Shown here: positions 1 to 64,000 of the stretch, piece by piece
Layout of the letters: every line of letters begins with the position of its first letter
Numbering within the stretch: the first letter of the stretch is position 1
Assembly: GCA_951812955.1 (NCBI GenBank)
Contig: OX638340.1
Coordinates: forward strand, 768,001-832,000
Reading direction: 5' to 3'
Length of the DNA stretch: 64,000 bases
Source of the DNA: an uncultured Gemmatimonadota bacterium
GTDB taxonomy: Bacteria; JAAXHH01
Notes under the pieces: model-generated
Database searches by the model: none
What the model was told of the DNA's origin: nothing
What the model saw: only the letters and a program-made list of their open reading frames with translations
Position numbers and translations under genes: made by a program

Positions 1-996
1 CAGATTTCCCCGAAGCAGCACCTACTGCCGCAGCGAATATGCTCAACCCCGTTGCTATAAGTTGCTTCTTCTTCTGATTCTGGTAAATTCGATAGCTATG
101 TCGTCTTTCTACGTGTGCGATTTCATGTGCCAGTACAGCTTCGATCTCCAGATCGCTCTCTGAAGATTCCAACAAACCTCGATTTACGTATACAAAACCA
201 GTTGGTACTGCGTACGCGTTGATCTCATCGTCTTCCATAACCGAGAATCGATAGTCGTAACCTTGTAGGGGTATAGGCCAGTGATCCAACACGCGTTTTC
301 CTATCTCCCTTGCCCGGGACTGAAGGTCATCATCAGTCGCCATCTGATTCGCACTCTGGATCACTTGCACTGAGTACAATCCAAGTACACGTTCAGTGGA
401 ATAGTCACTTACTAGTGGAGTCGATTTAAAACACAATGCACACGGGCGCATTCCCGTTTCTTCCGCTTCTTCAATTGAACCAAAAGGATGCTGCATGTCA
501 GGATGAGGTAAATGATTGCTGGACGCCACATGGTACATTTTACTATCAGTGTTTCCTATCAATACTTCATATTCAGTGGAATGTTCATCCAACCTGAAAC
601 ATAAAGCCAAACCCGTTTTAAATGCCTCCCGACCCATTACCGGTGAATGCAAGGGAGAAGAAAAACGAACCTGGCCCTTGCCCAGTCGAGTGCTTCTGAC
701 TTCTACTTCTATTCGGTCTTCCTTTGCCTTGATTGATCGAATCTCGATCGGTTCATCTTTGGGGATTCGGAACAGATTACGATAACGTCTAGAATGGGCG
801 TAATAATAGGTATTACCCTCGTGTTGATAGTAAGTCAGAGGATTTTGATGTATACTGCCTCTAAGTATTGCCTGACGTCCTTTTAATTCATTCTCTAGTT
901 CCTTTACCATCTTCGAGGATACTTTTTGTGCAAATAGGTCTTCAGAAGCCACGAGACAAATCACGATGCACATATACCGAACTAAATTGCGGTCCA
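1..996 (-). CDS. M48-family zinc metallopeptidase; N-terminal part only, the gene continues past the window start
   Basis: My own minus-strand translation gives MDRNLVRYMCIVICLVASEDLFAQ... with a signal-peptide-like N-terminus and HEIAHVERRH (HEXXH) encoded around 111-143. GGAGG lies 6 nt upstream of the ATG at 996..994. It is absent from the ORF track because there is no in-window stop. The segment is only about 45% GC against about 65% for the rest of the window. Confidence 0.7.
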
Positions 997-1092
997 TAAA
1001 CATCCTCCTAGTAGTAAGTTTGTAGTTGTGAATCACCTGTGCTATTACCATGTCCTGCTATTACCAAATTTCAGAAAGCTTGCTTTATTAGC

Positions 1093-2502
1093 TCAGCCTG
1101 ACTCGCTCCCATACTTCGCGTCCCCCACTTTCTCCTGAAGCCGCTTCAATTCCGCCTTCAACTGTGTAACCACTTCCGCGTAATCGGGATCCGCGTACAC
1201 GTTGTTTAGTTCGCAGGGATCCTTCTCCAGGTCGAACAGTTCCCACTCGGGCTCGGACTTCGGACCGATCGCGCCTTCCTGTCCGAGGGGGTCACCGTAA
1301 TAGTTGATCAGCTTGAACCGCAGGGTGCGGACGCCGTAGTGGGCGCAGACGTTGTGGTGGGCGCCGTGCATCCAGTACCGGTAGTACATGGACGTCTGCC
1401 ATTCATCCGGGGTCTCTCCCTGCAGGAGCGGCCGGAAGGAACAGCCCTGGAATGACTTCGGGATGTCCGCGCCTGCGCAATCCAGGAAGGTGGCGGGGAA
1501 GTCGACGTTCAGGATCATGTCTCCGTTCACCGTTCCCGGCGCCACCTCTCTGGGGTATCGGATCAGGAAGGGCATGCGCAGAGACTCCTCGTACATGAAC
1601 CGCTTGTCGTACCATCCGTGGTCTCCGAGGAAGAAACCCTGGTCCGACGTGTAGATCACGATGGTGTCCTCCGCGATCTCTTCTTCATCCATATAGTCCA
1701 GCAATCTGCCTACGTTGTCATCGATCGAGGCTATGCATCGCAGGTAGTCCTTGATATACCGCTGGTACTTCCAGCTTTTCTCTTCGGCGGGTGTCAGGCC
1801 TTCCGGTACAGGCACCTTCAGATCCTCCGCGGTGAGATCGCTTTCAACCCGCATCCGGGCGGCCGTGGCGGCCGCGGCCCGGTTCGAATAGTCGTCGTCG
1901 AAAGTCTCCGGCTCCGGGATGTCCTCGTCCTCATACATGTTCGCGTGCCGGTCGTCTGGCTCCCAGGACCTGTGCGGCGCCTTGTGATGAACCATGAGGC
2001 AGAAGGGACGGTCCCGGTCGCGGCCGCGTAGCCAGTCCAGGGAATAGTCCGTGATGAGATCGGTGGTGTACCCGCTTCGCTTCGTCCGTTCTCCCATTCT
2101 GATCATCTCGGGATCGTGATACAGGCCCTGGCCGGGCAGCACGTCCCAGAAGTCGAATCCGGTAGGATCGTGGATGCCTCCGTGGCCGAGATGCCACTTG
2201 CCTACCACCGCCGTCTGGTAACCCTGTTCCTGCAGCACCTTGGGATAATTCAGCAGGCGTCCGTCCAGGTGGGTGGACAGGGTGGTGACGCCGTTTACAT
2301 GGTTATACGTTCCCGTCAGGATAGCCGCACGGCTGGGCGTGCAGATGGAATTGGTGCAGAAGCAGTTGTCGAACCGCATCCCTTCGGCCGCGATGCGGTC
2401 GATATGGGGCGTCGCGTTGATCCTGCTGCCATAGGCGCTGATGGCGTGTGACGCGTGATCGTCGGCCATGATGAACAGGATGTTCGGGCGTGATTGGGGC
2501 AT
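1093..2502 (-). CDS. Cys-type sulfatase (arylsulfatase / N-sulfoglucosamine sulfohydrolase family); no signal peptide
   Basis: 469 aa. It carries the formylglycine motif C-T-P-S-R-A-A-I-L-T-G, and IMADDH near the N-terminus is a typical sulfatase metal-binding start. The catalytic domain begins directly after MPQSRPNILFIMADD. Confidence 0.85.
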   Translation of the reverse strand: MPQSRPNILFIMADDHASHAISAYGSRINATPHIDRIAAEGMRFDNCFCTNSICTPSRAAILTGTYNHVNGVTTLSTHLDGRLLNYPKVLQEQGYQTAVVGKWHLGHGGIHDPTGFDFWDVLPGQGLYHDPEMIRMGERTKRSGYTTDLITDYSLDWLRGRDRDRPFCLMVHHKAPHRSWEPDDRHANMYEDEDIPEPETFDDDYSNRAAAATAARMRVESDLTAEDLKVPVPEGLTPAEEKSWKYQRYIKDYLRCIASIDDNVGRLLDYMDEEEIAEDTIVIYTSDQGFFLGDHGWYDKRFMYEESLRMPFLIRYPREVAPGTVNGDMILNVDFPATFLDCAGADIPKSFQGCSFRPLLQGETPDEWQTSMYYRYWMHGAHHNVCAHYGVRTLRFKLINYYGDPLGQEGAIGPKSEPEWELFDLEKDPCELNNVYADPDYAEVVTQLKAELKRLQEKVGDAKYGSESG

Positions 2503-50960: not shown

Positions 50961-53315
50961 CTATTTCAACATTTTCACGATTTCATCATGCCCGGCTTTC
51001 TGCGCACGCGCAAACGGCGTAGCCCATTCCGCGCCCCCGGCACTGGGATCCGCGCCTCGTCCAAGCAGGAACTCCACCATGTCCCGGTGCCCCCAGCGCG
51101 CAGCCCATCCAAGCGGCGTCGAGCACCACTCGTCATCGATGGCTTCAATGGCCGCGCCGCGATCCAGCAACAGGGCGGCCTTTTCCACGTCACCGATCGC
51201 GGCCAGCTTGTGCAGGTAGGTGACGCCGTGCCAGTTGGCGTTATTGGGATCAGCCCCGCTGTCAAAAAACAGGTTCAGCATGTCCAGGATATCGTCATGC
51301 GGTCGCAAGGCGGCTCCGTCCAGTTTCCAGCCCTTTCGCCGTCTGAAGGCGTATCCCATGTAGTTGTTGGCGTACCACGGACGGTTCAGTTCGGCGCCAG
51401 CGCGGATCAGCATTTCGATAATCTCCTTGCGGGCGAATCCGGCTGCCATGCAAAGCACCCCGTAGTCGCCTCCGTAATTGGCCAGTCCTGGGTCCGCGCC
51501 GAGCAGTTCTCCAACGACCGGAATGTTATCTCTTAAAACGTACAAACCAATATCTGCCGTTGCACCGTGCTGATAGAGCAGGTTGATCATTTCCTCATTT
51601 TTGTCCCGTCCCAGTGCCTGGGTCAATGGATTGCCGCTCGACTCCACCGGCGCATTCGGGTCGGCTCCGCGTTCCAGCAGGAGTTTTGCGGTCTCGAGGT
51701 GATCGCCGGCTACGGCTTCGTACAACGCGTGACCGCGAGGCGCGTTGTACTCTGGCGCGTTGGGATCGGCCCCTTGGTCCAGCAGAAGTCGAACGATATC
51801 GGTATACCCCTGCCCCGCCGCGCTGTAGAGGGGGGAGAACCCGCAGGAATCCTGGTCGCTGACCAGGTTGCTGTCCCGCGCGAGCAGTTCCCGTACTCGC
51901 CGTTCGTCCCCCAGGGCACACGCGACGGTCATGCTGTATTCCGCTCCCCTCGCGACCAGGTATCCAGTCAGCAGCGGATTGGTCCGCCCCTGGGTTTTGC
52001 GGGCTCGAAACACGGCCAGGTGAAGGGGTTTGCATCTATCCCACCTTACCGGATCCGGTTCGGCCCCCAAATCCAACAGCAGGGCCGTCATTCCCAGGTT
52101 GTATTCTTCCACGGCCACGTGCAGCGGCCGACTGCCGCGTTCGTCGCCGGCGTTAACCAATTCCGGCGAGGCATTAAAAAACGCACGGGCCTCTTCCAGA
52201 TCGCCCTCCCGAACGATCTCGCAGGCGCGCTGGCCTACAGGGGGCGCTTCGTACCTGTTTGAAATCGCCTCCGTCAACAGTCCGGCGATCTCGTCGTATC
52301 CGCGGTCCCGGGCCCGATCCAGCGGCGGCACGTGGTATTCGAGTCCCGATGCCGAGGCGGGATCCGCGCCATGGTCGAGCAACAGGCGTACTGCTTCCGC
52401 ATGCCCTTCCCTGACAGCGAAGTGGAGCGGCTGGTAGTAAGCCCAGTTGCAGTTCGCCAGCCCCGGCTCTTTAAGCAACAGATCCTGGATCCTGGCCAGG
52501 TCTCCTTCAACCGCGGCCAACAGCATGTCCCATACCCTATCTGGCTTGCCATCCATGAAAAGACCTTGCTCGTTCGTGAAATCGGGTCGAATCCATTTCA
52601 TAACTCGGTCTCCGAATGCATCGTCCGTCGACGGCGCGTAATGATTGAGGTCCTGGTAAAGGACGCGGAAAAGACGGGGTTTCAGTTTGTTGCGGGCTTC
52701 GTAGAGCCGCTTGCGTACCGTGCCCGCTTTCAAACCCATGAACCCCGCGATTTCAGTCGGGGAATAGTCTCCAATATACCTCAGCAGCGTTACTTCTCTT
52801 AACGTCTCCGGCAGTGCTTCGACCGCCTCGCGGACCTTGTCGCTCAGGTCTTCGCGCGTAACCCGGTCCAGGGGACTTTCCCCGGTGGCCTGTAGTTTGT
52901 CCTCCATGGGCACAAGTACGTGGTTCTGACTTCTCCGGTACCGATAGCACTGCCATTGCACGATGCGTCGCAGCCAGGCCGGAAACGCGTCCGGTTCACG
53001 CAGCGACCGGATGTTCTGCCACGCGGCGACAAACCCTTCCTGCGTGGCGTCCTCCGCCAGGTGGCGTTCACCCAGGAGGCTTAGCGCGTAACCGAAAGCC
53101 ATGTCCTGATAGTAAGCCACCAGCTTGCCGAAGGCGAATCCTCGATCTGAATCGGGTACCGTGGCGTCCGTGGAGGCCTGTATGCATTTTAAAATATCGT
53201 TGGTCATCGTCTGCCGTTGGGTTTCACCTGCAGCATCATTAATTAGTGAAATTCGTATTAAACTAGTACCATAAATCCTACCAGACGTTACAAATAGTTG
53301 ATAGATTGACACCAC
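50961..53315 (-). CDS. ECF-type sigma-70 factor fused to a roughly 550 aa ankyrin-repeat C-terminal extension
   Basis: Sigma region 2 is DSDRGFAFGKLVAYYQDMAFGYAL...EDATQEGFVAAWQNIRSL. Region 4 is LREVTLLRYIGDYSPTEIAGFMGLKAGTVRKRLYEARNKL. After that come at least 8 ankyrin repeats (PLHFAVREGHAEAVRLLLDHGADP, SPLYSAAGQGYTDIVRLLLDQGADPNA, TPLGWAARWGHRDMVEFLLGRGADP and others). The likely start is MTNDILK at 53207. Confidence 0.75.
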   Translation of the reverse strand: MVSIYQLFVTSGRIYGTSLIRISLINDAAGETQRQTMTNDILKCIQASTDATVPDSDRGFAFGKLVAYYQDMAFGYALSLLGERHLAEDATQEGFVAAWQNIRSLREPDAFPAWLRRIVQWQCYRYRRSQNHVLVPMEDKLQATGESPLDRVTREDLSDKVREAVEALPETLREVTLLRYIGDYSPTEIAGFMGLKAGTVRKRLYEARNKLKPRLFRVLYQDLNHYAPSTDDAFGDRVMKWIRPDFTNEQGLFMDGKPDRVWDMLLAAVEGDLARIQDLLLKEPGLANCNWAYYQPLHFAVREGHAEAVRLLLDHGADPASASGLEYHVPPLDRARDRGYDEIAGLLTEAISNRYEAPPVGQRACEIVREGDLEEARAFFNASPELVNAGDERGSRPLHVAVEEYNLGMTALLLDLGAEPDPVRWDRCKPLHLAVFRARKTQGRTNPLLTGYLVARGAEYSMTVACALGDERRVRELLARDSNLVSDQDSCGFSPLYSAAGQGYTDIVRLLLDQGADPNAPEYNAPRGHALYEAVAGDHLETAKLLLERGADPNAPVESSGNPLTQALGRDKNEEMINLLYQHGATADIGLYVLRDNIPVVGELLGADPGLANYGGDYGVLCMAAGFARKEIIEMLIRAGAELNRPWYANNYMGYAFRRRKGWKLDGAALRPHDDILDMLNLFFDSGADPNNANWHGVTYLHKLAAIGDVEKAALLLDRGAAIEAIDDEWCSTPLGWAARWGHRDMVEFLLGRGADPSAGGAEWATPFARAQKAGHDEIVKMLK

Positions 53316-53822: not shown

Positions 53823-54737
53823 TCAGGTCCCCCCGGAGCCGTAATCCGCCAGGAGGTAATGCACGGCCAGGTTGGTGAAGTTGCCCCAACGGTCCGCGAA
53901 TTCCCGGATTCGCTCCTCGGAAACCCGCTCTCCGTTGAAGTAATGCCGCTCGATGGAGCGCTTAACCGCCAGGTCGCCCGCGGCGATGACGTTGCCCCTC
54001 CCCACGTAACGGGCGAGAAACCAGTCCGCCGTCCAGCGGCCGATTCCCACCAGGGCCGTCAGCGCCCGTTGCACCGAAGCGTCGTCCATTTCCGCCAGTC
54101 CATCCAGGTCGACTTCGCCCGACTGGATCGCCTGCGCCAGGTTGATGATATACCGTTCCTTCTGCCTGGAAAACTGCAATGGAACCAGATCGCCCGGGTT
54201 CAGTTGCGCCAGCCGCCCGGGGGTCGGGAAGGCATAGTGGGTTTCGCCACCGAAATCCACGGACTCTCCAAACTCGGCGACTAGCCTTCCCCGTACCGTG
54301 TAGGCGAACCCGAGGTTGATCTGCTGGGCCGTGATGGAGGAAACGAGCATCTCGAAGGGATCTACCTGCAGGTTGGGTCGCAGGCCATGGTGTTTGTCGA
54401 CCGAGGCGGACAGGACAGGGTCCTTTGACGCGAATGCGTAGAATTCCGGTAGCGGGAAGGAAAGGCCGAGGATCTTTCCGGCCGCCCCGAGCGCCGTGTC
54501 GATCACCGAGGAATCCGCCTGTACAGCCGCATCCCTGTGCGTCAGACGCATATTGATCCGGTCACCCGATCGATACAGCGCGATCAGGCAAGACCCCTTC
54601 CCGGTTTCTATCACCTTGCTGAAGACACCATCCCGGAACCGGTTGGCGACGTCGCTGCCGTACCGCCGGTACCGATCGAGGGTGGCCTCGAAGTCGAGGA
54701 CCGTATCTTCATCTGCTACAGATAACTCTCCCGGCAT
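53823..54737 (-). CDS. alkA: DNA-3-methyladenine glycosylase II (AlkA-like, HhH-GPD)
   Basis: There is an AlkA N-terminal domain. The helix-hairpin-helix is LVGIGRWTADWFL, and the catalytic Asp lies in AAGDLAVKR. Confidence 0.7.
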   Translation of the reverse strand: MPGELSVADEDTVLDFEATLDRYRRYGSDVANRFRDGVFSKVIETGKGSCLIALYRSGDRINMRLTHRDAAVQADSSVIDTALGAAGKILGLSFPLPEFYAFASKDPVLSASVDKHHGLRPNLQVDPFEMLVSSITAQQINLGFAYTVRGRLVAEFGESVDFGGETHYAFPTPGRLAQLNPGDLVPLQFSRQKERYIINLAQAIQSGEVDLDGLAEMDDASVQRALTALVGIGRWTADWFLARYVGRGNVIAAGDLAVKRSIERHYFNGERVSEERIREFADRWGNFTNLAVHYLLADYGSGGT

Positions 54738-54853
54738 GATGGTCTGGTATTTCCCGACTCAACGAAGTCGACGCGGCCGTGCACGAACCGCACGAATCGT
54801 GTAGTCCGTGCGGTCTGAGCGGTCCGCAAGCTGCCTGATAAGACTTAATTCGA

Positions 54854-55207
54854 TCAGGATTCGTTTGGCTTCCAAAGACCGACGAAGGTGCCCTCGATAT
54901 CCGTTATCCACGCGAAATGCCCCATGCCCGGAACTTCGGTCGGCGGAACGATGGACGATCCGCCCAGTTCCTCGGCCTTCGCGATATACGCATCGAGATC
55001 GTCGACCTGTACATAGATCAGCGTATAGTTGTGCGGTTCATGGCCGAGCGCTGAAATGTGTCCGCTGATCCCCGAATCATCATCCGGCAGGATCATGGAA
55101 GCATGTTCATGGGATTCCATGTTCCACCCGAACAAACTGCCGTAGAAGGCCTGTGTCTCTTCCCGGTTCTTACAGCCGATCTCGAAGTGTACGACGGGGT
55201 TTGGCAT
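54854..55207 (-). CDS. VOC-family (glyoxalase-like) protein
   Basis: 117 aa. The VOC N-terminal signature VVHFEIGCKNREETQAFYGSLFGW is present. Confidence 0.65.
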   Translation of the reverse strand: MPNPVVHFEIGCKNREETQAFYGSLFGWNMESHEHASMILPDDDSGISGHISALGHEPHNYTLIYVQVDDLDAYIAKAEELGGSSIVPPTEVPGMGHFAWITDIEGTFVGLWKPNES

Positions 55208-55260
55208 GTTGATTCTCCCTGGGTTGTGGCGCGGGTACCTAGCGCGAGATTGAATACAAC

Positions 55261-55310
55261 GGTCAATACGTGGTGCTCAGCTCAGGTCAACACGTGGTGC
55301 TCAGGTCAAT
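55261..55310. repeat. 20 bp direct repeat GGTCAAyACGTGGTGCTCAG x2, plus a third partial copy, immediately upstream of the VOC gene
   Basis: GGTCAATACGTGGTGCTCAG-ctca-GGTCAACACGTGGTGCTCAG-GTCAATGGTTGC. Each full copy contains an ACGTG core. Confidence 0.8.
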
Positions 55311-55322
55311 GGTTGCGAAATA

Positions 55323-55913
55323 TCATCTGTACTTGTCGTGCAGGCCCTGTCCGGCCAGGATCATGGGCAGAATCTTCTCCAGACGCTTTTTTCTGGTCTC
55401 CTCACGTTTGGCCTCGGCGACATGCTCGGCGAATGCTCTCCGCTTTCCAGGGGAGAACGCTTCGAAGCGTTCGCGGAGGTCTTCGTTTTCGGCCAGGACG
55501 ACGGCTAATTCGTCAGGAATCTGGAGAGGCTTGTTACGGTCCGCCTTGATCTCCCGGCCCTGGCGCTGGTTCTCGATAGACTCTTCTACGTAGGACCGAA
55601 GCAGCCCTTCGTCGATTTCGTCCTCGGTCCGGATTCTCCACTGTCTCAGGGCCTTTGTCCTGCCTTCCTGGGCATTGACCAGCACACCTCGTTCGTCACG
55701 CAGCAGCGCGCCCTGGTGGAACCATATGCTGACGAAGTCCTTGAAGGCGGCCAGACCGATCAGGTTTTTACCCTGAAAGGTATAGCACGGCGCGCCCCAC
55801 TTGACGGTTTCTACGAGTTCCGATTCGGCCACCACGGTGCGTAACCGGTCCAGGACTGAGCGCCATTCGGCGTGCGCCTCCAGGTACTCGGGTACGGTCT
55901 TGAATCGTTTCAA
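55323..55913 (-). CDS. YdeI/DUF1801-family protein
   Basis: The N-terminal DUF1801 region is VPEYLEAHAEWRSVLDRLR...VKWGAPCY. The C-terminal YdeI-like region is PDELAVVLAENEDLRERFEAFSPGKRRAF. Confidence 0.55.
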   Translation of the reverse strand: MKRFKTVPEYLEAHAEWRSVLDRLRTVVAESELVETVKWGAPCYTFQGKNLIGLAAFKDFVSIWFHQGALLRDERGVLVNAQEGRTKALRQWRIRTEDEIDEGLLRSYVEESIENQRQGREIKADRNKPLQIPDELAVVLAENEDLRERFEAFSPGKRRAFAEHVAEAKREETRKKRLEKILPMILAGQGLHDKYR

Positions 55914-55976
55914 ATGATGTCCTTTCGAAGACGGTCAGATTGTGGGCCGGTGCCGGTCCCAGTGCGTTGGGACAAT

Positions 55977-58488
55977 TTACCGGGGTCCTCGCACCGCCGT
56001 GGAATCTATCGCTTTAGAACCGGGCGTGGAGGCGCCGCCGAACAGACTGAGCCGGCCCGAGATCGCGGCTTCCACGTCCAGGTCGTAAACCTGGGAAATG
56101 GTGGTAACGATGGGACGGATCTGCTTTTCAATGTAATGACCGTAATCAACGGGCGCGTCAAGCTGGCCTTCCGGTTGAGGTCCGTCTCGCGTGATCACGT
56201 ACCGAATGACGCCGGTGGGATTGTCCATGAGTCTGGCGGCCTTTACGTGGGGCGGTACCGAGCGCGTGTAGAACTCCACCGGTTTTCGCAGGTTCTTTCT
56301 GTACACCAGCAGGTCGTCTTTTTGCCCGGACTGTACAGAGAGGACCCACCTGAAGATCTCGTCTTCGATCTCGACACCGGGCGATTCGTGAAATACCCGG
56401 TCGAGCAGGACGGCCTGCAGCTGGTGCGCCAGGTCGGTCCAGTCCCTTCGTACTGCTTCCATCCCGACGATTTCCACCCGGTCGCCATCGCGGTCGCGTC
56501 TGAGCCCCGCGTATCCCTTGGCCCGTCCCCGTTCGCTGTCCCCCCGCATGGATGGCAACAGAAACCGGTGGTAGTGCTTTTCCAGTTCCAGTTCGAGAAA
56601 AGAGGAAACGCCATACCGCTCCTTGACGTGCTCGGCAAGCCGTTCGTTGATACGATTGCACACCGCGCCACCGAGCCTAAGGGCTTCACCCGGATCGGCA
56701 AGGTCTGGCGCGTTCAGATCGACGAAAACCGAGTCGGTATCCCCATACAGCACCTTGTAGCCGTCTTTCTCCAGCTCGTCGCGACACCACCTTAGAATGT
56801 AGTGGCCGAACTCGGTGATTGCGCCGGCCAGCTGGGGCGCGGCGAATCGGCAGGAAGCCGACGCCAGCACGCCGTAGAACGAATTCATGACGATCTTGTA
56901 GGTGAAGGAAGCAAGGTCGTCGCCGCTGGCCTTGGCCTCCTCGCGGCTTTTAAAGAACTGCTCCAGCATGGAGGGCAGGATGCCGGGCGTTCGGGTGAAT
57001 CGCGCGCCGTTGGGCGCGGTAAGACAGTCATCTTCGTCCATCTCGTCCCGTGCCTCGATATGGGCCAGGGGATCGATGTTGAAGGTTCGTATGATGGACG
57101 GATAAAGGCTCTTGAAATCAAAGACGAATATGTTCCTGTACAGCCCTGCCTTCGACGGTATGATGAGCCCCCCCGGCGCGCCGGCGCCCGGGGTACGGTC
57201 CACGCCGGTTGTCGGCGCCACCATGCTGCGCTGATGCAGGGCGTTGATGTAGATATTGTCGAAGGCGGCCACGCTCACCCAGGCGCGTTCCAGTGGCAGG
57301 CCCGTGAGCAGTCCCCTGCGCAAGGTAAGGTTGATCAACCCTTCCGCTTCCAGGATATCCAGAACCAGCCGGGCATCCTCCAGGCAATAGGCGCAGAAGA
57401 GGTTACGGTCCTCGCGATAGACTTCCGTGATCTGCTCCGCCCTCGAATTCCCCGAATCCTCTTCGAGCAGCTTACCCCGGCCCAGGATGGCGTGGGCCAC
57501 CGTGCCCAGCCGGTAGTCATCGAACCTTTGCAGCGTGCCGCGCAGGAGATGCAGGGCATCCAGGATCTGGCGCCCGTGGATGACCATGGTGCTGCCGCCC
57601 CAAACTTCGCCGGACCGGTACCAGGACTGGTCCGCCGTCCGCCCGAGCTGAAAAGGCACGTTCAGGTCCCTGAAGCGCCGTTGCAGCACTTTCATATCGA
57701 AGTCGACCAGGTTCCATCCGGTGAGCAGGTCGGGATCCATTTCGAGCAACCTCGCCGACACACCGCGAAGCATCGACGCCTCGTCGGCCCAGCAGACCAG
57801 GGAGGCCGGGTCACCCGGAGCGGGTGCGCCCACCATGTGGATTTCTTCCGATTCGACGCCCGAGATCGTATCCGCGAGGATCAAGCCGACGGCGTAAATG
57901 GTGGTCGCTTTCGGATCCGTTTCTATGTCCAGAGCCAGTACGCGGAATGACGGCTCCCAGTAAGCAGGCTTCAGCGTAGGGTTGGCATACACTCGGTCGA
58001 CCCGGTCGCCGGGCGTCCAGGAACCGCTGATCCGGACGCCGCCGCGCAATCCAAGTCCGATCAGGAACTGTCTGCCGAAAGGCAGGTCGCCTTCGTAACT
58101 TCGCGTGCCCTGGGCCTCGAGCCCTTTGGCCAGGCCGCGCTGATCCCGTACGCGGTCGCACTGGACGCCGACCACCGGTTCGCCATCCATGGTTGTGTAT
58201 TCCGACGGGACTAACCGTGCCGTGACCTCGTTGGAACCGATCCGGTCGGATGCCGCCTGCGTTTCCGAGGTCCTGACGAAGAGTGCAGGAGAAACGCGAT
58301 CATCCGTAAACAGGAACGTATGACCACCCTGGAGCTTGCCGACGCCGCAGATGACGTCACGTCCGCGCTCCGTGCGATGAAAGACGTGGAGCAGGTAGCC
58401 TACGTCTCCTCCGCCATCCGGGGATTCGTGCTGATCCGCGGGGTCACTGGACGGAAGTGAGCGATCCCTGCCGGGGTTGTGTTCAGTT

Positions 58489-58502
<14 letters not shown>
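55977..58502 (-). CDS. polB: Family B DNA polymerase (DNA polymerase II)
   Basis: Exo I is LALDIETD. Motif A is [15 protein letters not shown], motif B is [13 protein letters not shown] and motif C is [11 protein letters not shown]. These are near-identical to the E. coli Pol II motifs. The start overlaps the uvrA stop by 14 nt. Confidence 0.9.
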
Positions 58503-61446
<2,944 letters not shown>

Positions 61447-61476
61447 CCAGGTGACTCCGTAATACGTCTGGCACCT

Positions 61477-62433
61477 TCAGGGCCGGTAATGGTAGAAAGC
61501 GAGTTCTTCGTACTCCACGTTACTTTTAAGCGTCAGTCTGTGCGGGCTCGACACCCGGCTGATGATCTCTTTGTCCGCCAGCCATTCGCATACCGTCGTC
61601 ACGCCCCGGAGATTCATCTGGTTATCGAAGTATGTTTCGATTTCCGTGACCGAGCGGACCGAACCCTCCTCCGCCAGGTAATCGAGTATGGGCTGGAACA
61701 TTACAGGAATGCGCTCTTCCAGGTACGCCTCGATGCGCGTGAGGGCGCCGGCGATCGCTTCGCTGGAAACAGGCTGGTCGATCAGGCGGGTGTATACGGC
61801 ATCGAAAAAGTCCGGATTCAACCGAAGCGCCTGTTGGATGACTTCACGGCTGGCCAGTTGACTGTCGAGAAACACCTCAATCTTTGCCAGTCCGTTCACA
61901 CAGTGCAATATGTAAAGGAAACTGTAGTGAAGATCCTCCTTCACGTGAAACCACTTCTCGGCTTTGTACAGGGTAGGTATCACGAAAGCGCCGGCATGCA
62001 TGAGCTGCACCTGCCGGTCTCTCTCCTTAAGTTCCCCGATACCCTCGTACAGTTCGCGAATGGTTTCGTCCCGGGTAAACAGCAGGCGGCTTTCCGCGAA
62101 CGAGGCATGCATGAAGGAGCTTTGCAGGCCCCCTTCTATCATTTTCCTGAACGCGGAACGGGGCTGCATGAACACGTGAATGTATACGTCGTGTTCCAGG
62201 AGTGCCGCGCCTTCCGAGACCTCGTCGTCGTCCCTGCCTTCCTTGCGAAAAAGGTCCTTGTCGTCTCGTGTTACGACGATCAGGTCGATATCGGATTTCT
62301 CCCAGACACGGTCGGCGGAAAGGCTACCGAACAGAATCGCCGCAAGCACGTGGCGGTCCTGTTTCGCCTTCGCGACAAAGGCGTCGAGAGCTGCCTCGAA
62401 CCGCTGCTGTATAGACTGTGATGTGTTTTCCAT
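61477..62433 (-). CDS. Pol-beta-superfamily nucleotidyltransferase with a C-terminal helical domain (ANT/KNTase-like layout)
   Basis: The NTase motif is LFGSLSADRVWEKSDIDLIVV (hG[GS]...DxD), followed by a roughly 200 aa helical domain. It ends 30 bp upstream of uvrA on the same strand. The track start is 62481; the start MENTSQ at 62433 is also possible. Confidence 0.6.
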   Translation of the reverse strand: MENTSQSIQQRFEAALDAFVAKAKQDRHVLAAILFGSLSADRVWEKSDIDLIVVTRDDKDLFRKEGRDDDEVSEGAALLEHDVYIHVFMQPRSAFRKMIEGGLQSSFMHASFAESRLLFTRDETIRELYEGIGELKERDRQVQLMHAGAFVIPTLYKAEKWFHVKEDLHYSFLYILHCVNGLAKIEVFLDSQLASREVIQQALRLNPDFFDAVYTRLIDQPVSSEAIAGALTRIEAYLEERIPVMFQPILDYLAEEGSVRSVTEIETYFDNQMNLRGVTTVCEWLADKEIISRVSSPHRLTLKSNVEYEELAFYHYRP

Positions 62434-62485
62434 CGAGGTATCCCGCCAGCCGAACAATTCTACCGCCCGGCCGTTTGACATGAGC

Positions 62486-62498
62486 GGTTAAATTAACC
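62486..62498. promoter_or_regulatory. Perfect palindrome GGTTAA-a-TTAACC upstream of the NTase-uvrA-polB gene string; candidate operator
   Basis: I read it directly from the sequence at 62486-62498, in the divergent region between the NTase gene and the globin-ankyrin gene. Confidence 0.3.
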
Positions 62499-62763
62499 AT
62501 TTGGACGTGACGGGTCAACGCGCAAATACCTTGCTGAACGCCCTGCACGCCTCGGTTGGAGGCATGTCGACCGGGTTCAGTCCGTATCGAATTTGACGCC
62601 CGGTTCCGGCCGCTGTGTGCTACCGCAAGGTGGTTTCAGACCCCGATATTCCTTGAATTGCTCCACTAGATCGATCAAAATGGGTATAGATTCCCGATCC
62701 GATTCCTTGGCCGTGTCATTTCCGGACAAGTAGCCTGAGGTACCGAACCGTGAGGATGGTTCC

Positions 62764-64000
62764 GTGACCTTCACGCCCAATGGACCGCATTCTTCCGCCG
62801 TGCATGCCGTTCTGCGCCATCGGGGCGGCCTCGCCCCGGAGCTGAGGCCCGATCCGACGCTCTTCCAACGAGTCGGGGGCCGATCCGTGATCGCGAAGGT
62901 AATCGACGGGCTGTACGACCGGATCGAAGTAGATTCCGACCTGCGTCCGATGTTTACCCGGACATTGGCTCCGGAACGTATGAAACAGAAAGCCTTCCTC
63001 GAAGAATGGATGGGAGAAGAACCGGGCTATACCCATCATCACGCCTACGGCGGAATCAAAAACCGCCACGGGCATATTCACATCACGCCGGAATCCGCGG
63101 AACGGTGGCTGGCGCACATGACCGATGCGTTGCTCGAGCATGTGAGGGATGACCGGCTCGTGAACGAAGCGCTGGCCACCCTCGGTCCCCTCGCCCGCGG
63201 ACTCGTCAACGAGAAGAAGCCACCAGAAAGCCCCGGACAACTCAGATGCTTCAGGGAAAAACGATGGAGACAGCCGGCCAAAATGGCGGCCAGGGGACAG
63301 ATGGAAGCACTCGAGAACTTTCTCGAGGAGGATTCCACGGTATTGGGCGATCCTCGTCACAGCGCAATCATCCTCGCGGAAGCGGCGCTGAGGGGCCATA
63401 CGCGGGTCGCGGCCCTGCTGCTTGACCGGGGGGTGGACGTAAACATACCATCTGCCCATTCGAGCGATATCATGATGACCGCCTATTGTGCCGCGCGAAG
63501 CAAGAGAAAAGACGAAACGGCCGGTTACCTGGCGGACCGCGGCGCGGTGTACGATGTCTTCAGCGCCTGTTTTCTCGGAGACATGGACCGGGTTGCCGTC
63601 CTGCTCGAAGCCCATCCCGGCCTGGTCAACGCAAGCGACCCCGCCTGCGACCTGTTGCCCGTGACCCCGTTGCACCATGCCGTGTACGGCGGCCATGAAC
63701 CCGTCGCCAGGTTCCTCTTTGAACGTGGCGCGGAGACCGGCGTGAACAGCACAGCCCTGTTGAAATACGCGGCGGAACGGGGACAGGCGAGCCTGGTCCG
63801 GTTGTTGCTGGCACACGGGGCGGATGCTTCGAGGATCGGTTGCGGCCGCTGGGTCGTCGATCCCGAGATCTCCGCGCTCCTGCTCGCCCGCGGCGCGGAC
63901 GTGAACTATCCCGATGGGAATTGGGTCTGGACGGCATGCACGGGAAACAACAGCCAGCGGGACGACCCCGCCTACGTGCAGGCACTGCTGGACAAGGGGG
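62764..64000 (+). CDS. Truncated hemoglobin (2/2 Hb, Bac_globin) fused to ankyrin repeats; C-terminus lies beyond the window end
   Basis: My own translation from GTG 62764 (GAGGA 7 nt upstream, in-frame TAG at 62731) gives ...LFQRVGGRSVIAKVIDGLYDRIEVDSDLRPMF...HAYGGIKNRHGHIHITPESAERWLAHMTDALLEH, which fits the trHb pattern. Then come the ankyrin repeats TPLHHAVYGGHEPVARFLFERGAET, LLLAHGADAS and LLLARGADVN. It is not in the ORF track because there is no in-window stop. Confidence 0.7.
   Translation, partial: MTFTPNGPHSSAVHAVLRHRGGLAPELRPDPTLFQRVGGRSVIAKVIDGLYDRIEVDSDLRPMFTRTLAPERMKQKAFLEEWMGEEPGYTHHHAYGGIKNRHGHIHITPESAERWLAHMTDALLEHVRDDRLVNEALATLGPLARGLVNEKKPPESPGQLRCFREKRWRQPAKMAARGQMEALENFLEEDSTVLGDPRHSAIILAEAALRGHTRVAALLLDRGVDVNIPSAHSSDIMMTAYCAARSKRKDETAGYLADRGAVYDVFSACFLGDMDRVAVLLEAHPGLVNASDPACDLLPVTPLHHAVYGGHEPVARFLFERGAETGVNSTALLKYAAERGQASLVRLLLAHGADASRIGCGRWVVDPEISALLLARGADVNYPDGNWVWTACTGNNSQRDDPAYVQALLDKG

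What the first reader, a model, noticed from the sequence alone, without database searches (positions are those of the whole stretch)
62764..64000. Truncated-hemoglobin / ankyrin-repeat fusion protein, missed by the ORF track
My own translation from GTG 62764 gives a 2/2 Hb domain (RVGGRSVIAKVIDGLYDRIEVDSDLRPMF ... ITPESAERWLAHMTDALLEH) followed by ankyrin repeats that run off the window. The 366 aa antisense ORF in the track (62716..63816) is almost certainly spurious. A heme or gas-binding globin fused to a protein-interaction scaffold suggests an O2/NO sensor. It sits diverging from the repair gene string and is paired in the window with the ECF-ankyrin fusion.
Basis: partly seen in the sequence, partly recalled or inferred. 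Interest (0 to 1): 0.55.

Follow-up and report, generated by a model that had tools for sequence, protein, structure and literature searches.

The report
Truncated hemoglobin fused to ankyrin repeats
The end of the window really does encode a small bacterial heme protein (a group II truncated hemoglobin) fused to a long ankyrin-repeat scaffold; this uncharacterised protein family occurs in at least seven bacterial phyla, and its job (targeted redox enzyme or gas/redox sensor) is still open.

Summary
Observation confirmed. From GTG 62764 the + strand is open to the window end (412 codons). It matches Pfam Bac_globin (E 2.5e-15) followed by ankyrin repeats. A 100%-identical database protein (P0001) shows the full gene is 522 aa.

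The antisense ORF is spurious. The "ORF track" missed the gene only because the gene runs off the window.

The fusion family is widespread: 80 genomic loci in Gemmatimonadota/Latescibacterota (many from sponges), Chloroflexota, Armatimonadota, Actinomycetota (including cultured strains), Myxococcota and Proteobacteria. It has no conserved neighbour outside the sponge clade, so pairing with the ECF-ankyrin gene is clade synteny, not a demonstrated functional link.

Function is inferred, not shown. I favour a heme redox enzyme (peroxidase or NO-detoxifying type) docked to a partner by the ankyrin scaffold, at about 0.4. A ligand- or redox-gated sensor comes second, at about 0.3. I rate it a new variant of a known kind (a chimeric truncated hemoglobin), of moderate interest.

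The parts
62653..62681 (+). Promoter-like site for the globin-ankyrin gene: -35 TTGAAT (62653-62658), a 17-nt spacer, -10 CAAAAT (62676-62681). It is sigma-70-like, not ECF-like.
   Evidence: Read from the sequence. The CCTTGA element and a TACTTT/TACATT element at matching spacing are conserved in the alignment of 12 intergenic regions. It falls below the consensus threshold of the promoter scan. Inferred, not shown.
62752..62756 (+). Shine-Dalgarno GAGGA, 7 nt upstream of the GTG start.
   Evidence: The AGGA core is invariant in 12 aligned loci, and the start codons (GTG/ATG) align.
62764..64000 (+). Coding sequence of the globin-ankyrin fusion, residues 1-412 of 522. It is cut by the window end; the predicted stop is near 64332.
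62764..62856 (+). N-terminal extension (aa 1-31) with the near-invariant H19-R20 ('HRGG') motif; predicted helix over aa 8-20.
   Evidence: H19 and R20 are present in 68/71 members, the rest being gaps. AF2 helix 8-20 has pLDDT about 90.
62857..63195 (+). 2-on-2 globin domain, group II (aa 32-144). Key residues: Tyr-B10 Y51 (62914-62916), Phe-CD1 F64, Glu-E7 E71 (62974-62976), Gln-E11 Q75, Phe-E14 F78, Y89 (equivalent to YjbI Tyr63), proximal His-F8 H102 (63067-63069), Trp-G8 W115 (63106-63108).
63196..63291 (+). Conserved inter-domain linker (aa 145-176): N149 (70/71), C162 (69/71, codon 63247-63249), R164 (64/71).
   Evidence: Predicted with pLDDT of about 89 or higher.
63292..64000 (+). Ankyrin-repeat solenoid, first ~7 of ~10-11 helix-pair repeats (aa 177-412). 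It carries the family-specific motifs DPACD (aa 292-296), GxGRW (359-363), W387 and C392-TGNNSQRDDP-402.
62716..63816 (-). Spurious 366-aa antisense ORF (a shadow of the GC-rich coding frame).
   Evidence: No significant Pfam hit. The equivalent frame has 2-5 stops in L002, L004 and L006, and variation is concentrated at + strand codon position 3.

Best explanation
Architecture (shown or strongly supported). The gene encodes a cytoplasmic 522-aa protein in two domains. The N-terminal domain is a group II (trHbO/YjbI-type) truncated hemoglobin with a complete heme pocket. It is joined by a conserved linker to a solenoid of about 10-11 ankyrin repeats that carries family-specific motifs. The two domains are predicted to form one rigid unit.

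Mechanism (inferred). The globin domain binds heme b through His102. Like the characterised group II truncated hemoglobins, it performs redox chemistry on small oxidants rather than reversible O2 signalling. Candidate reactions are peroxide or protein-hydroperoxide reduction and NO/O2 chemistry. The Tyr-B10/Gln-E11/Trp-G8 network, the Tyr equivalent to the catalytically essential Tyr63 of YjbI, and a family-specific Glu at E7 would all take part. The ankyrin solenoid would act as a fixed docking platform that holds a specific partner next to the heme. That partner could be a client protein to be protected or an electron donor that re-reduces the heme.

Expression appears to come from its own sigma-70-like promoter, as a stand-alone gene. 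Confidence in the architecture is about 0.97. Confidence in this functional reading is about 0.4.
For: Architecture.

Heme pocket. Y51, F64, F78, W82, G84, H102 and W115 are each present in 71/71 members. Q75 is present in 65/71.

Link to YjbI chemistry. The HMMER alignment to YjbI (1ux8) maps YjbI Tyr63 onto Y89, which is Tyr in 62/71 members and otherwise His, Trp or Phe. Tyr63 is required for YjbI's protein-hydroperoxide peroxidase-like activity (PMC9536834).

Glu at E7. It is present in 65/71 members and is enriched among the globin rows that carry a C-terminal extension of at least 150 aa (135 rows). Solved group II proteins have Thr or Gly at this position. From general knowledge, a distal carboxylate is the acid-base catalyst in chloroperoxidase and in unspecific peroxygenases.

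Rigid coupling. pTM is 0.89 for P0001 and 0.92 for P0062, which is 41% identical. The linker is conserved.

The ankyrin part is as conserved as the globin and has non-canonical invariant motifs, which fits a specific partner.

Precedent for an ankyrin protein serving a heme peroxide enzyme: katB-ankB and katA-ankA operons, where AnkB is required for KatB activity (PMC12754779 citing Howell 2000).

No conserved signalling neighbour was found in 84 neighbours from distant lineages. The promoter-like site is sigma-70-type.
Against: Nothing functional was measured. Heme binding, catalysis and partner binding are all inferred.

An ankyrin scaffold without a catalytic output is equally what a partner-switching sensor would look like.

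The Glu-E7 argument rests on analogy with unrelated heme enzymes.

Model coordinates and PAE were not available, so I could not check whether the ankyrin groove faces outward (partner site) or covers the heme pocket (autoregulation).

Genomic context gives no partner candidate.

The KatB-AnkB analogy involves a small periplasmic ankyrin protein that was not shown to be related to this one.
Confidence: 0.4

Rival explanations
1. Heme-based sensor. Binding of O2, NO, CO or H2S, or a redox change at the heme, is transmitted through the rigid linker to the ankyrin solenoid. The solenoid then captures or releases a regulatory partner, for example a sigma factor or anti-sigma factor, in an IkB-like sequestration.
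For: The two-domain unit is rigid and confidently predicted, and the linker is conserved. The ankyrin part has no catalytic domain. In the sponge clade an ECF sigma-ankyrin gene lies 5-10 kb upstream. Some members come from oxygen-minimum-zone and sponge habitats where O2 fluctuates (record titles).
Against: The globin belongs to T family group II, not the S family used by all described globin-coupled sensors (PMC7475203). From memory, group II trHbs with Tyr-B10/Trp-G8/Gln-E11 have very high O2 affinity and very slow release, which suits a reversible O2 sensor poorly. No signalling or regulatory gene is conserved nearby: Sigma70_r4 occurs in 2 of 84 neighbours and GerE in 2 of 84. The ECF-ankyrin linkage is absent outside one clade.
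Confidence: 0.3
2. The ankyrin solenoid acts on the globin itself and there is no external partner. It could serve as an intramolecular chaperone or stabiliser, an oligomerisation module, or a lid that gates access to the heme pocket.
For: High pTM implies an extensive fixed interface. The conserved N-terminal HRGG motif, the linker residues N149, C162 and R164, and the TGNNSQRDDP loop could all be interface elements. In Chlamydomonas THB11, extensions of the globin modulate oligomerisation and reactivity (PMC7082302).
Against: About 350 residues of strongly conserved repeats is a large investment for stabilising a 120-aa domain that is stable alone in many bacteria. One genome keeps the ankyrin module with the linker but has lost the globin (P0056). 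That suggests the ankyrin part has a role of its own.
Confidence: 0.12
3. Eukaryote-like effector of sponge symbionts: an ankyrin protein delivered to host cells to interfere with phagocytosis, with the globin as an accessory.
For: The closest relatives are sponge-associated MAGs (APA_bin_41, IRC1_bin_16, SB0665_bin_8). The locus lies in a cluster of ankyrin genes. From general knowledge, ankyrin proteins are enriched in sponge symbionts.
Against: The same architecture is found in soil and groundwater Actinomycetota (including cultured Trebonia and Actinopolymorpha), Chloroflexota, Armatimonadota and Myxococcota. The N-terminus shows no signal-peptide-like hydrophobic stretch. A heme-loaded folded globin is an unlikely secretion substrate.
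Confidence: 0.06
4. Artefact: two adjacent genes fused by a sequencing or assembly error or a frameshift, or chance ORF similarity.
For: None found.
Against: The single-ORF architecture, with the same linker, recurs in 80 independent genomic loci and about 85 protein clusters from many projects and phyla. Codon-position statistics show purifying selection across the junction.
Confidence: 0.01

Closest known systems
Single-domain group II truncated hemoglobins: Bacillus subtilis YjbI (1ux8), Geobacillus stearothermophilus trHb (2bkm), Thermobifida fusca trHb (2bmm), M. tuberculosis HbO (1ngk)
   Different: This protein carries a 30-aa N-terminal extension with an HRGG motif, and Glu instead of Thr, Gly or Ala at E7. 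It also has a conserved linker and a ~350-aa ankyrin solenoid. YjbI is reported at the cell surface or in the biofilm matrix (PMC9536834). Here there is no sign of export.
[quoted passage not shown] Also 2/2Hb fusions to protein kinase or nitrate reductase, and tandem multi-globin proteins (Hade 2017, cited in PMC7082302)
   Same: An N-terminal group II 2/2 globin is joined to a second domain in one polypeptide. The existence of chimeric T2/O globins in bacteria is established.
   Different: The partner here is an ankyrin-repeat scaffold, not an enzyme domain. No ABM, kinase or reductase domain is detected. I found no paper that mentions an ankyrin partner. Hade 2017 could not be read.
Globin-coupled sensors (HemAT, DosC, GCS-STAS and others)
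   Same: An N-terminal heme globin is followed by a non-globin C-terminal module. Signal transfer through a linker is conceivable.
   Different: GCS globins belong to the S family and have a 3-on-3 fold. Their C-terminal modules are recognised transmitters such as MCP, GGDEF, kinase or STAS (PMC7475203). Here the globin is T family group II and the C-terminal module has no known output activity.
Catalase-ankyrin pairs (katB-ankB, katA-ankA)
   Same: A heme protein that handles peroxide is functionally tied to a bacterial ankyrin-repeat protein. AnkB is required for KatB activity (PMC12754779).
   Different: These are separate genes in an operon. The heme protein is a catalase, not a globin. 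AnkB is small and periplasmic (Howell 2000, as cited). Homology between AnkB and this ankyrin module was not tested, and no catalase is nearby.

Membership tests
Truncated (2/2) hemoglobin, Pfam PF01152 Bac_globin | Sequence match above the curated Pfam threshold | tested here: met
   57.2 bits against a cut-off of 21, E 2.5e-15, aa 32-144, profile positions 1-116 of 121.
Truncated (2/2) hemoglobin | 2-on-2 helical sandwich fold | tested here: met
Truncated (2/2) hemoglobin | Proximal His F8 and distal Tyr B10 | tested here: met
   H102 and Y51 align with YjbI His76 and Tyr25 and are present in 71/71 family members.
Truncated (2/2) hemoglobin | Gly-Gly hinge motifs (AB and EF corners) | tested here: met
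   G38-G39 are present in 69/71 members, the rest being gaps. G84 is present in 71/71. The second EF glycine is Glu85 in this protein but Gly in 66/71 relatives.
Group II (O-type, trHbO/YjbI) truncated hemoglobin | Trp at G8 with Tyr B10, and closer to group II than to groups I or III | tested here: met
Group II truncated hemoglobin | Binds heme b and diatomic ligands | not testable with these tools
   Needs recombinant protein and spectroscopy.
Ankyrin-repeat protein | Multiple Ank repeats above Pfam thresholds and a solenoid fold | tested here: met
Globin-coupled sensor (GCS) | Sensor globin of the S family (3-on-3 fold, protoglobin-related) | tested here: not met
   The globin is T family group II with a 2-on-2 fold. 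The definition is taken from PMC7475203.
Globin-coupled sensor (GCS) | C-terminal transmitter domain with known signalling output (MCP, GGDEF, kinase, STAS and others) | tested here: not met
   Only ankyrin families are detected C-terminal to the globin.
trHb-ABM chimera (S. avermitilis type) | C-terminal antibiotic-biosynthesis-monooxygenase domain | tested here: not met
   No ABM hit in Pfam.
   A homologue of the sigma part lies upstream in at least 13 sponge-clade loci. Elsewhere only generic ~27%-identical ECF hits appear, in 2 loci. Sigma70_r4 occurs in 2 of 84 immediate neighbours in distant loci.
Known or candidate anti-phage defence proteins (PADLOC; NCBIfam MzaA) | Full-length match to a defence-system model | tested here: not met
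   Only partial generic ankyrin matches: PDC-M72A profile positions 242-386 of 392, and MzaA at 13 bits against its 800-bit cut-off.

The most novel reading that the evidence does not exclude
This family could be the first truncated (2/2, T-family) hemoglobin whose heme state is read out, or whose chemistry is directed, through a built-in protein-interaction scaffold. In one version it is a ligand- or redox-gated partner switch, which would be a new class of globin-coupled sensor outside the S family. In the other it is a heme peroxidase with a distal Glu that is docked to a dedicated client or reductase. In either case the ankyrin domain would be a handle for identifying the physiological partner of group II truncated hemoglobins. 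To my knowledge that partner is not settled.
Probability: 0.3. Interest if true: 0.65.

Novelty: new variant of a known kind. Interest (0 to 1): 0.45.

Why it matters
Group II truncated hemoglobins are widespread, but their physiological roles and redox partners are poorly defined. The clearest functional case I could read is YjbI, a protein-hydroperoxide peroxidase (PMC9536834).

A conserved, rigid fusion to a protein-binding scaffold makes the partner question experimentally approachable. One can pull down whatever the ankyrin domain binds and test whether binding depends on the heme state.

The family is present in cultured actinomycetes (Trebonia kvetii 15TR583, Actinopolymorpha pittospori DSM 45354), so genetics and biochemistry are feasible. 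The near-invariant Glu at E7 is an unusual distal-pocket residue for a globin and is a simple mutational target.

For sponge-symbiont biology, it shows that part of the large ankyrin repertoire is tied to cytoplasmic heme/redox chemistry rather than to host manipulation.

NCBI names the protein only 'ankyrin repeat domain-containing protein', so the globin is hidden from keyword searches.

Tried and rejected
- Extending the contig by exact look-up of P0001 and of the neighbouring nucleotidyltransferase gave 'not on record'. I used the 91%-identical syntenic locus L001 instead.
- I looked for a conserved operon partner in two ways: all-against-all clustering of ORFs in 80 loci, and a Pfam scan of 84 immediate neighbours in distant lineages. 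Nothing recurs beyond 3 of 84. Synteny exists only within the sponge clade.
- I looked for split versions, meaning a stand-alone globin next to an ankyrin-only relative. P0056 has lost the globin (only 134 nt lie upstream), and P0092 has no globin ORF in the 930-nt upstream gap.
- A Foldseek search of the PDB returned only generic ankyrin/DARPin matches, with no two-domain precedent. The afdb50 library was unavailable.
- Model coordinates and PAE are not exposed, so the inter-domain interface, the position of the TGNNSQRDDP loop and that of Cys162 could not be examined.
- Literature searches for a truncated hemoglobin/ankyrin fusion found only unrelated papers. Hade 2017 on multidomain trHbs is not held.
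- The defence-system reading is rejected: PADLOC and NCBIfam give only generic ankyrin similarity.
- The consensus promoter/terminator scan found nothing in 62300-62900. The promoter-like sites rest on conservation only.
- The two 985-aa ORFs in the window are unrelated to each other.

Full report
OBSERVATION. The + strand frame starting at GTG 62764 is open to the last base of the window (412 codons). The nearest upstream in-frame stop is TAG 62731-62733, so GTG 62764 is the first possible start. Pfam finds Bac_globin (PF01152) at aa 32-144 with E 2.5e-15 (57.2 bits, cut-off 21). It also finds several ankyrin families above threshold from about aa 170 onward. A database protein identical over all 412 residues, P0001, is 522 aa and begins at the same codon. 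About 110 codons therefore lie beyond the window.

GENE MODEL AND THE ANTISENSE ORF. In an alignment of the upstream region from 11 related loci, the start codons (GTG or ATG) line up, and a GGAGGA Shine-Dalgarno sits 7-8 nt upstream. Against four relatives (92-75% amino-acid identity), nucleotide differences concentrate at + strand codon position 3, for example 74/54/162 and 86/52/180. The relatives keep the + frame open, whereas the frame equivalent to the 366-aa antisense ORF (62716..63816) has 2-5 stops in three of them. That ORF has no significant family hit, so it is a shadow ORF. The gene was 'missed' because ORFs that run off a window end are not listed. It is called in public records: a member of its 90% cluster is MCY4544356.1, 'ankyrin repeat domain-containing protein' from a Gemmatimonadota MAG. 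JGI names relatives 'truncated hemoglobin YjbI/ankyrin repeat protein'.

THE GLOBIN DOMAIN. A sequence search of the PDB ranks group II truncated hemoglobins first: Geobacillus trHb 2bkm at 9.4e-18, B. subtilis YjbI 1ux8 at 1.1e-13, T. fusca 2bmm at 1.8e-8. Group I proteins score 1e-4 to 2e-3. The HMMER alignment to YjbI maps Tyr25, Phe38, Gln49, Phe52, Tyr63, His76 and Trp89 onto Y51, F64, Q75, F78, Y89, H102 and W115.

One family-specific difference stands out. Position E7 is Glu (E71) in 65/71 members, and in most globin rows that carry a long C-terminal extension. Solved group II proteins have Thr or Gly there.

DISTRIBUTION. The protein search returned about 85 clusters (90% identity) with both domains, 450-570 aa long. 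The genome scan returned 80 loci. The closest are OY762445.1 (91%) and the Aplysina sponge MAG APA_bin_41 (92%). About 25 further loci belong to Gemmatimonadota/Latescibacterota-labelled MAGs, many from sponges but also from oxygen-minimum zones and groundwater. The remaining loci are from Chloroflexota, Armatimonadota, Actinomycetota, Myxococcota, Alphaproteobacteria and a Pseudomonadales MAG. The Actinomycetota include cultured Trebonia kvetii 15TR583, Actinopolymorpha pittospori DSM 45354 and Actinopolymorpha sp. B11F2.

An exhaustive profile-free search with aa 1-175 found 137 representatives (50% clusters) at E <= 1e-10. Many of them are 480-570 aa long. The shared linker and ankyrin motifs across all of these indicate a single origin of the fusion. 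One genome carries an ankyrin-only derivative that keeps the linker but has no room for a globin (P0056).

CONTEXT. In the window the gene diverges from a minus-strand string with five members:
- a nucleotidyltransferase (61477-62481);
- uvrA (58489-61446, NF001503 at 1183 bits, above its cut-off);
- polB, DNA polymerase II (55977-58502);
- a DUF1801/OmdA protein;
- an HhH-GPD glycosylase.

The ECF sigma-ankyrin fusion (50961-53315) lies 9.4 kb upstream. This arrangement is conserved in the sponge-associated clade. The sigma part is found upstream in at least 13 loci, and uvrA, polB and the NTase occur in 13-17 loci. There the gene is followed by a convergent ankyrin-only gene and another ankyrin gene.

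Outside that clade nothing is conserved. Clustering of all ORFs found no shared neighbour. A Pfam scan of 84 immediate neighbours found no family in more than 3 of them, and Sigma70_r4 in only 2. The ankyrin regions of the two fusions are only about 26% identical. The 'pairing' with the ECF-ankyrin gene is therefore clade synteny, not evidence of a functional couple. The conserved upstream elements resemble a sigma-70 promoter (TTGAAT-17-CAAAAT) rather than an ECF promoter. This is an inference.

WHAT IS KNOWN. Reviews state that T-family globins, once thought to be single-domain (PMC1457004), also occur as chimeras in bacteria (T2/O and T3/P). The cited examples are the S. avermitilis trHb-ABM protein and 'multidomain' trHbs (PMC7475203). 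Fusions to protein kinase or nitrate reductase are also cited (PMC7082302). None of ten full-text searches found an ankyrin partner. The one survey that might list it (Hade 2017) is not held. For group II function, the clearest case I could read is YjbI, a protein-hydroperoxide peroxidase that needs Tyr63 (PMC9536834). A precedent for an ankyrin protein serving a heme peroxide enzyme is katB-ankB and katA-ankA (PMC12754779).

MECHANISM. Three things are shown or strongly supported: the architecture, the intact heme pocket and the rigid coupling. The function is inferred.

I favour, at about 0.4, a heme redox enzyme whose ankyrin solenoid docks a specific client or electron donor. The reasons are as follows:
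- The pocket is of the YjbI/trHbO type.
- The YjbI catalytic Tyr is conserved.
- The family has acquired a distal Glu that could act as an acid-base catalyst (by analogy, from general knowledge).
- Characterised group II proteins act as redox enzymes or scavengers.
- No signalling partner or output domain is present.

The sensor reading, at about 0.3, remains viable, because a catalytically silent scaffold rigidly coupled to a heme domain is what a partner-switching sensor would look like. It is not a globin-coupled sensor by membership, since both the globin family and the output module are wrong. An intramolecular role for the ankyrin part (about 0.12) and a host-directed effector (about 0.06) are less likely. 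An artefact is excluded.

VERDICT. The functional interpretation is plausible but unproven, and the proposed link to the ECF-ankyrin gene is not supported. The object is an uncharacterised but widespread variant of a known kind, a chimeric group II truncated hemoglobin. It is moderately interesting, mainly because the built-in ankyrin scaffold offers a route to the unknown partners of this globin class.

Noticed in passing
window 50961-53315 (-): 784-aa ECF sigma factor fused to a long C-terminal ankyrin array. TIGR02937 scores 86 bits against a cut-off of 42.9, and Sigma70_r2/r4 are detected. It is not the MZA defence sigma MzaA (66 bits against 800). It lies upstream of the globin-ankyrin gene in at least 13 sponge-clade loci.
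   Followed up: partly
window 53823-62481 (-): DNA-repair gene string: HhH-GPD glycosylase, DUF1801/OmdA, polB (DNA Pol II, 680 bits > 570), uvrA (1183 bits > 1147, overlapping polB by 14 nt), and a Polbeta-type nucleotidyltransferase with no NCBIfam match. The order is conserved in the sponge clade.
   Followed up: partly
L001 11547-12617 (-) and 14185-15912 (-): Just past the window end in the 91%-identical relative, a convergent ankyrin-only gene overlaps the 3' end of the globin-ankyrin gene by about 23 nt. A 575-aa ankyrin gene follows. With the ECF-ankyrin gene this makes at least four ankyrin genes within about 25 kb.
   Followed up: partly
window 62486-62518: Perfect palindrome GGTTAA-A-TTAACC (62486-62498). 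It coincides with a -10-like TAATTT of a minus-strand promoter-like site (TTGACC at 62518->62513, 17-nt spacer) only 8 nt from the nucleotidyltransferase ATG, which suggests a leaderless mRNA. GTCAAC is conserved in relatives.
   Followed up: partly
proteins P0123, P0127, P0129, P0139, P0189: Large proteins with 5-11 tandem truncated-hemoglobin-like stretches (up to 1882 aa) appear among the hits to the globin domain. They probably correspond to the 'multi-unit T globins' mentioned in reviews.
   Followed up: no
L081 4001-5128 (protein P0056): An ankyrin-only derivative of the family in an 8.4-Mb genome. It keeps the linker (NE...LRC) and the CTGNNSQRD motif, but only 134 nt lie upstream, so the globin domain has been lost.
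   Followed up: yes
window 63034-63081 (aa 91-106): His-rich segment T-H-H-H-A-Y-G-G-I-K-N-R-H102-G-H-I-H around the proximal histidine. H104 is present in 49/71 members and H106 in 44/71, so it is confined to the marine/sponge subclade. Its significance is unknown.
   Followed up: partly
window 1-2000: GC content is 0.51 here, against about 0.58-0.63 in the rest of the window.
   Followed up: no
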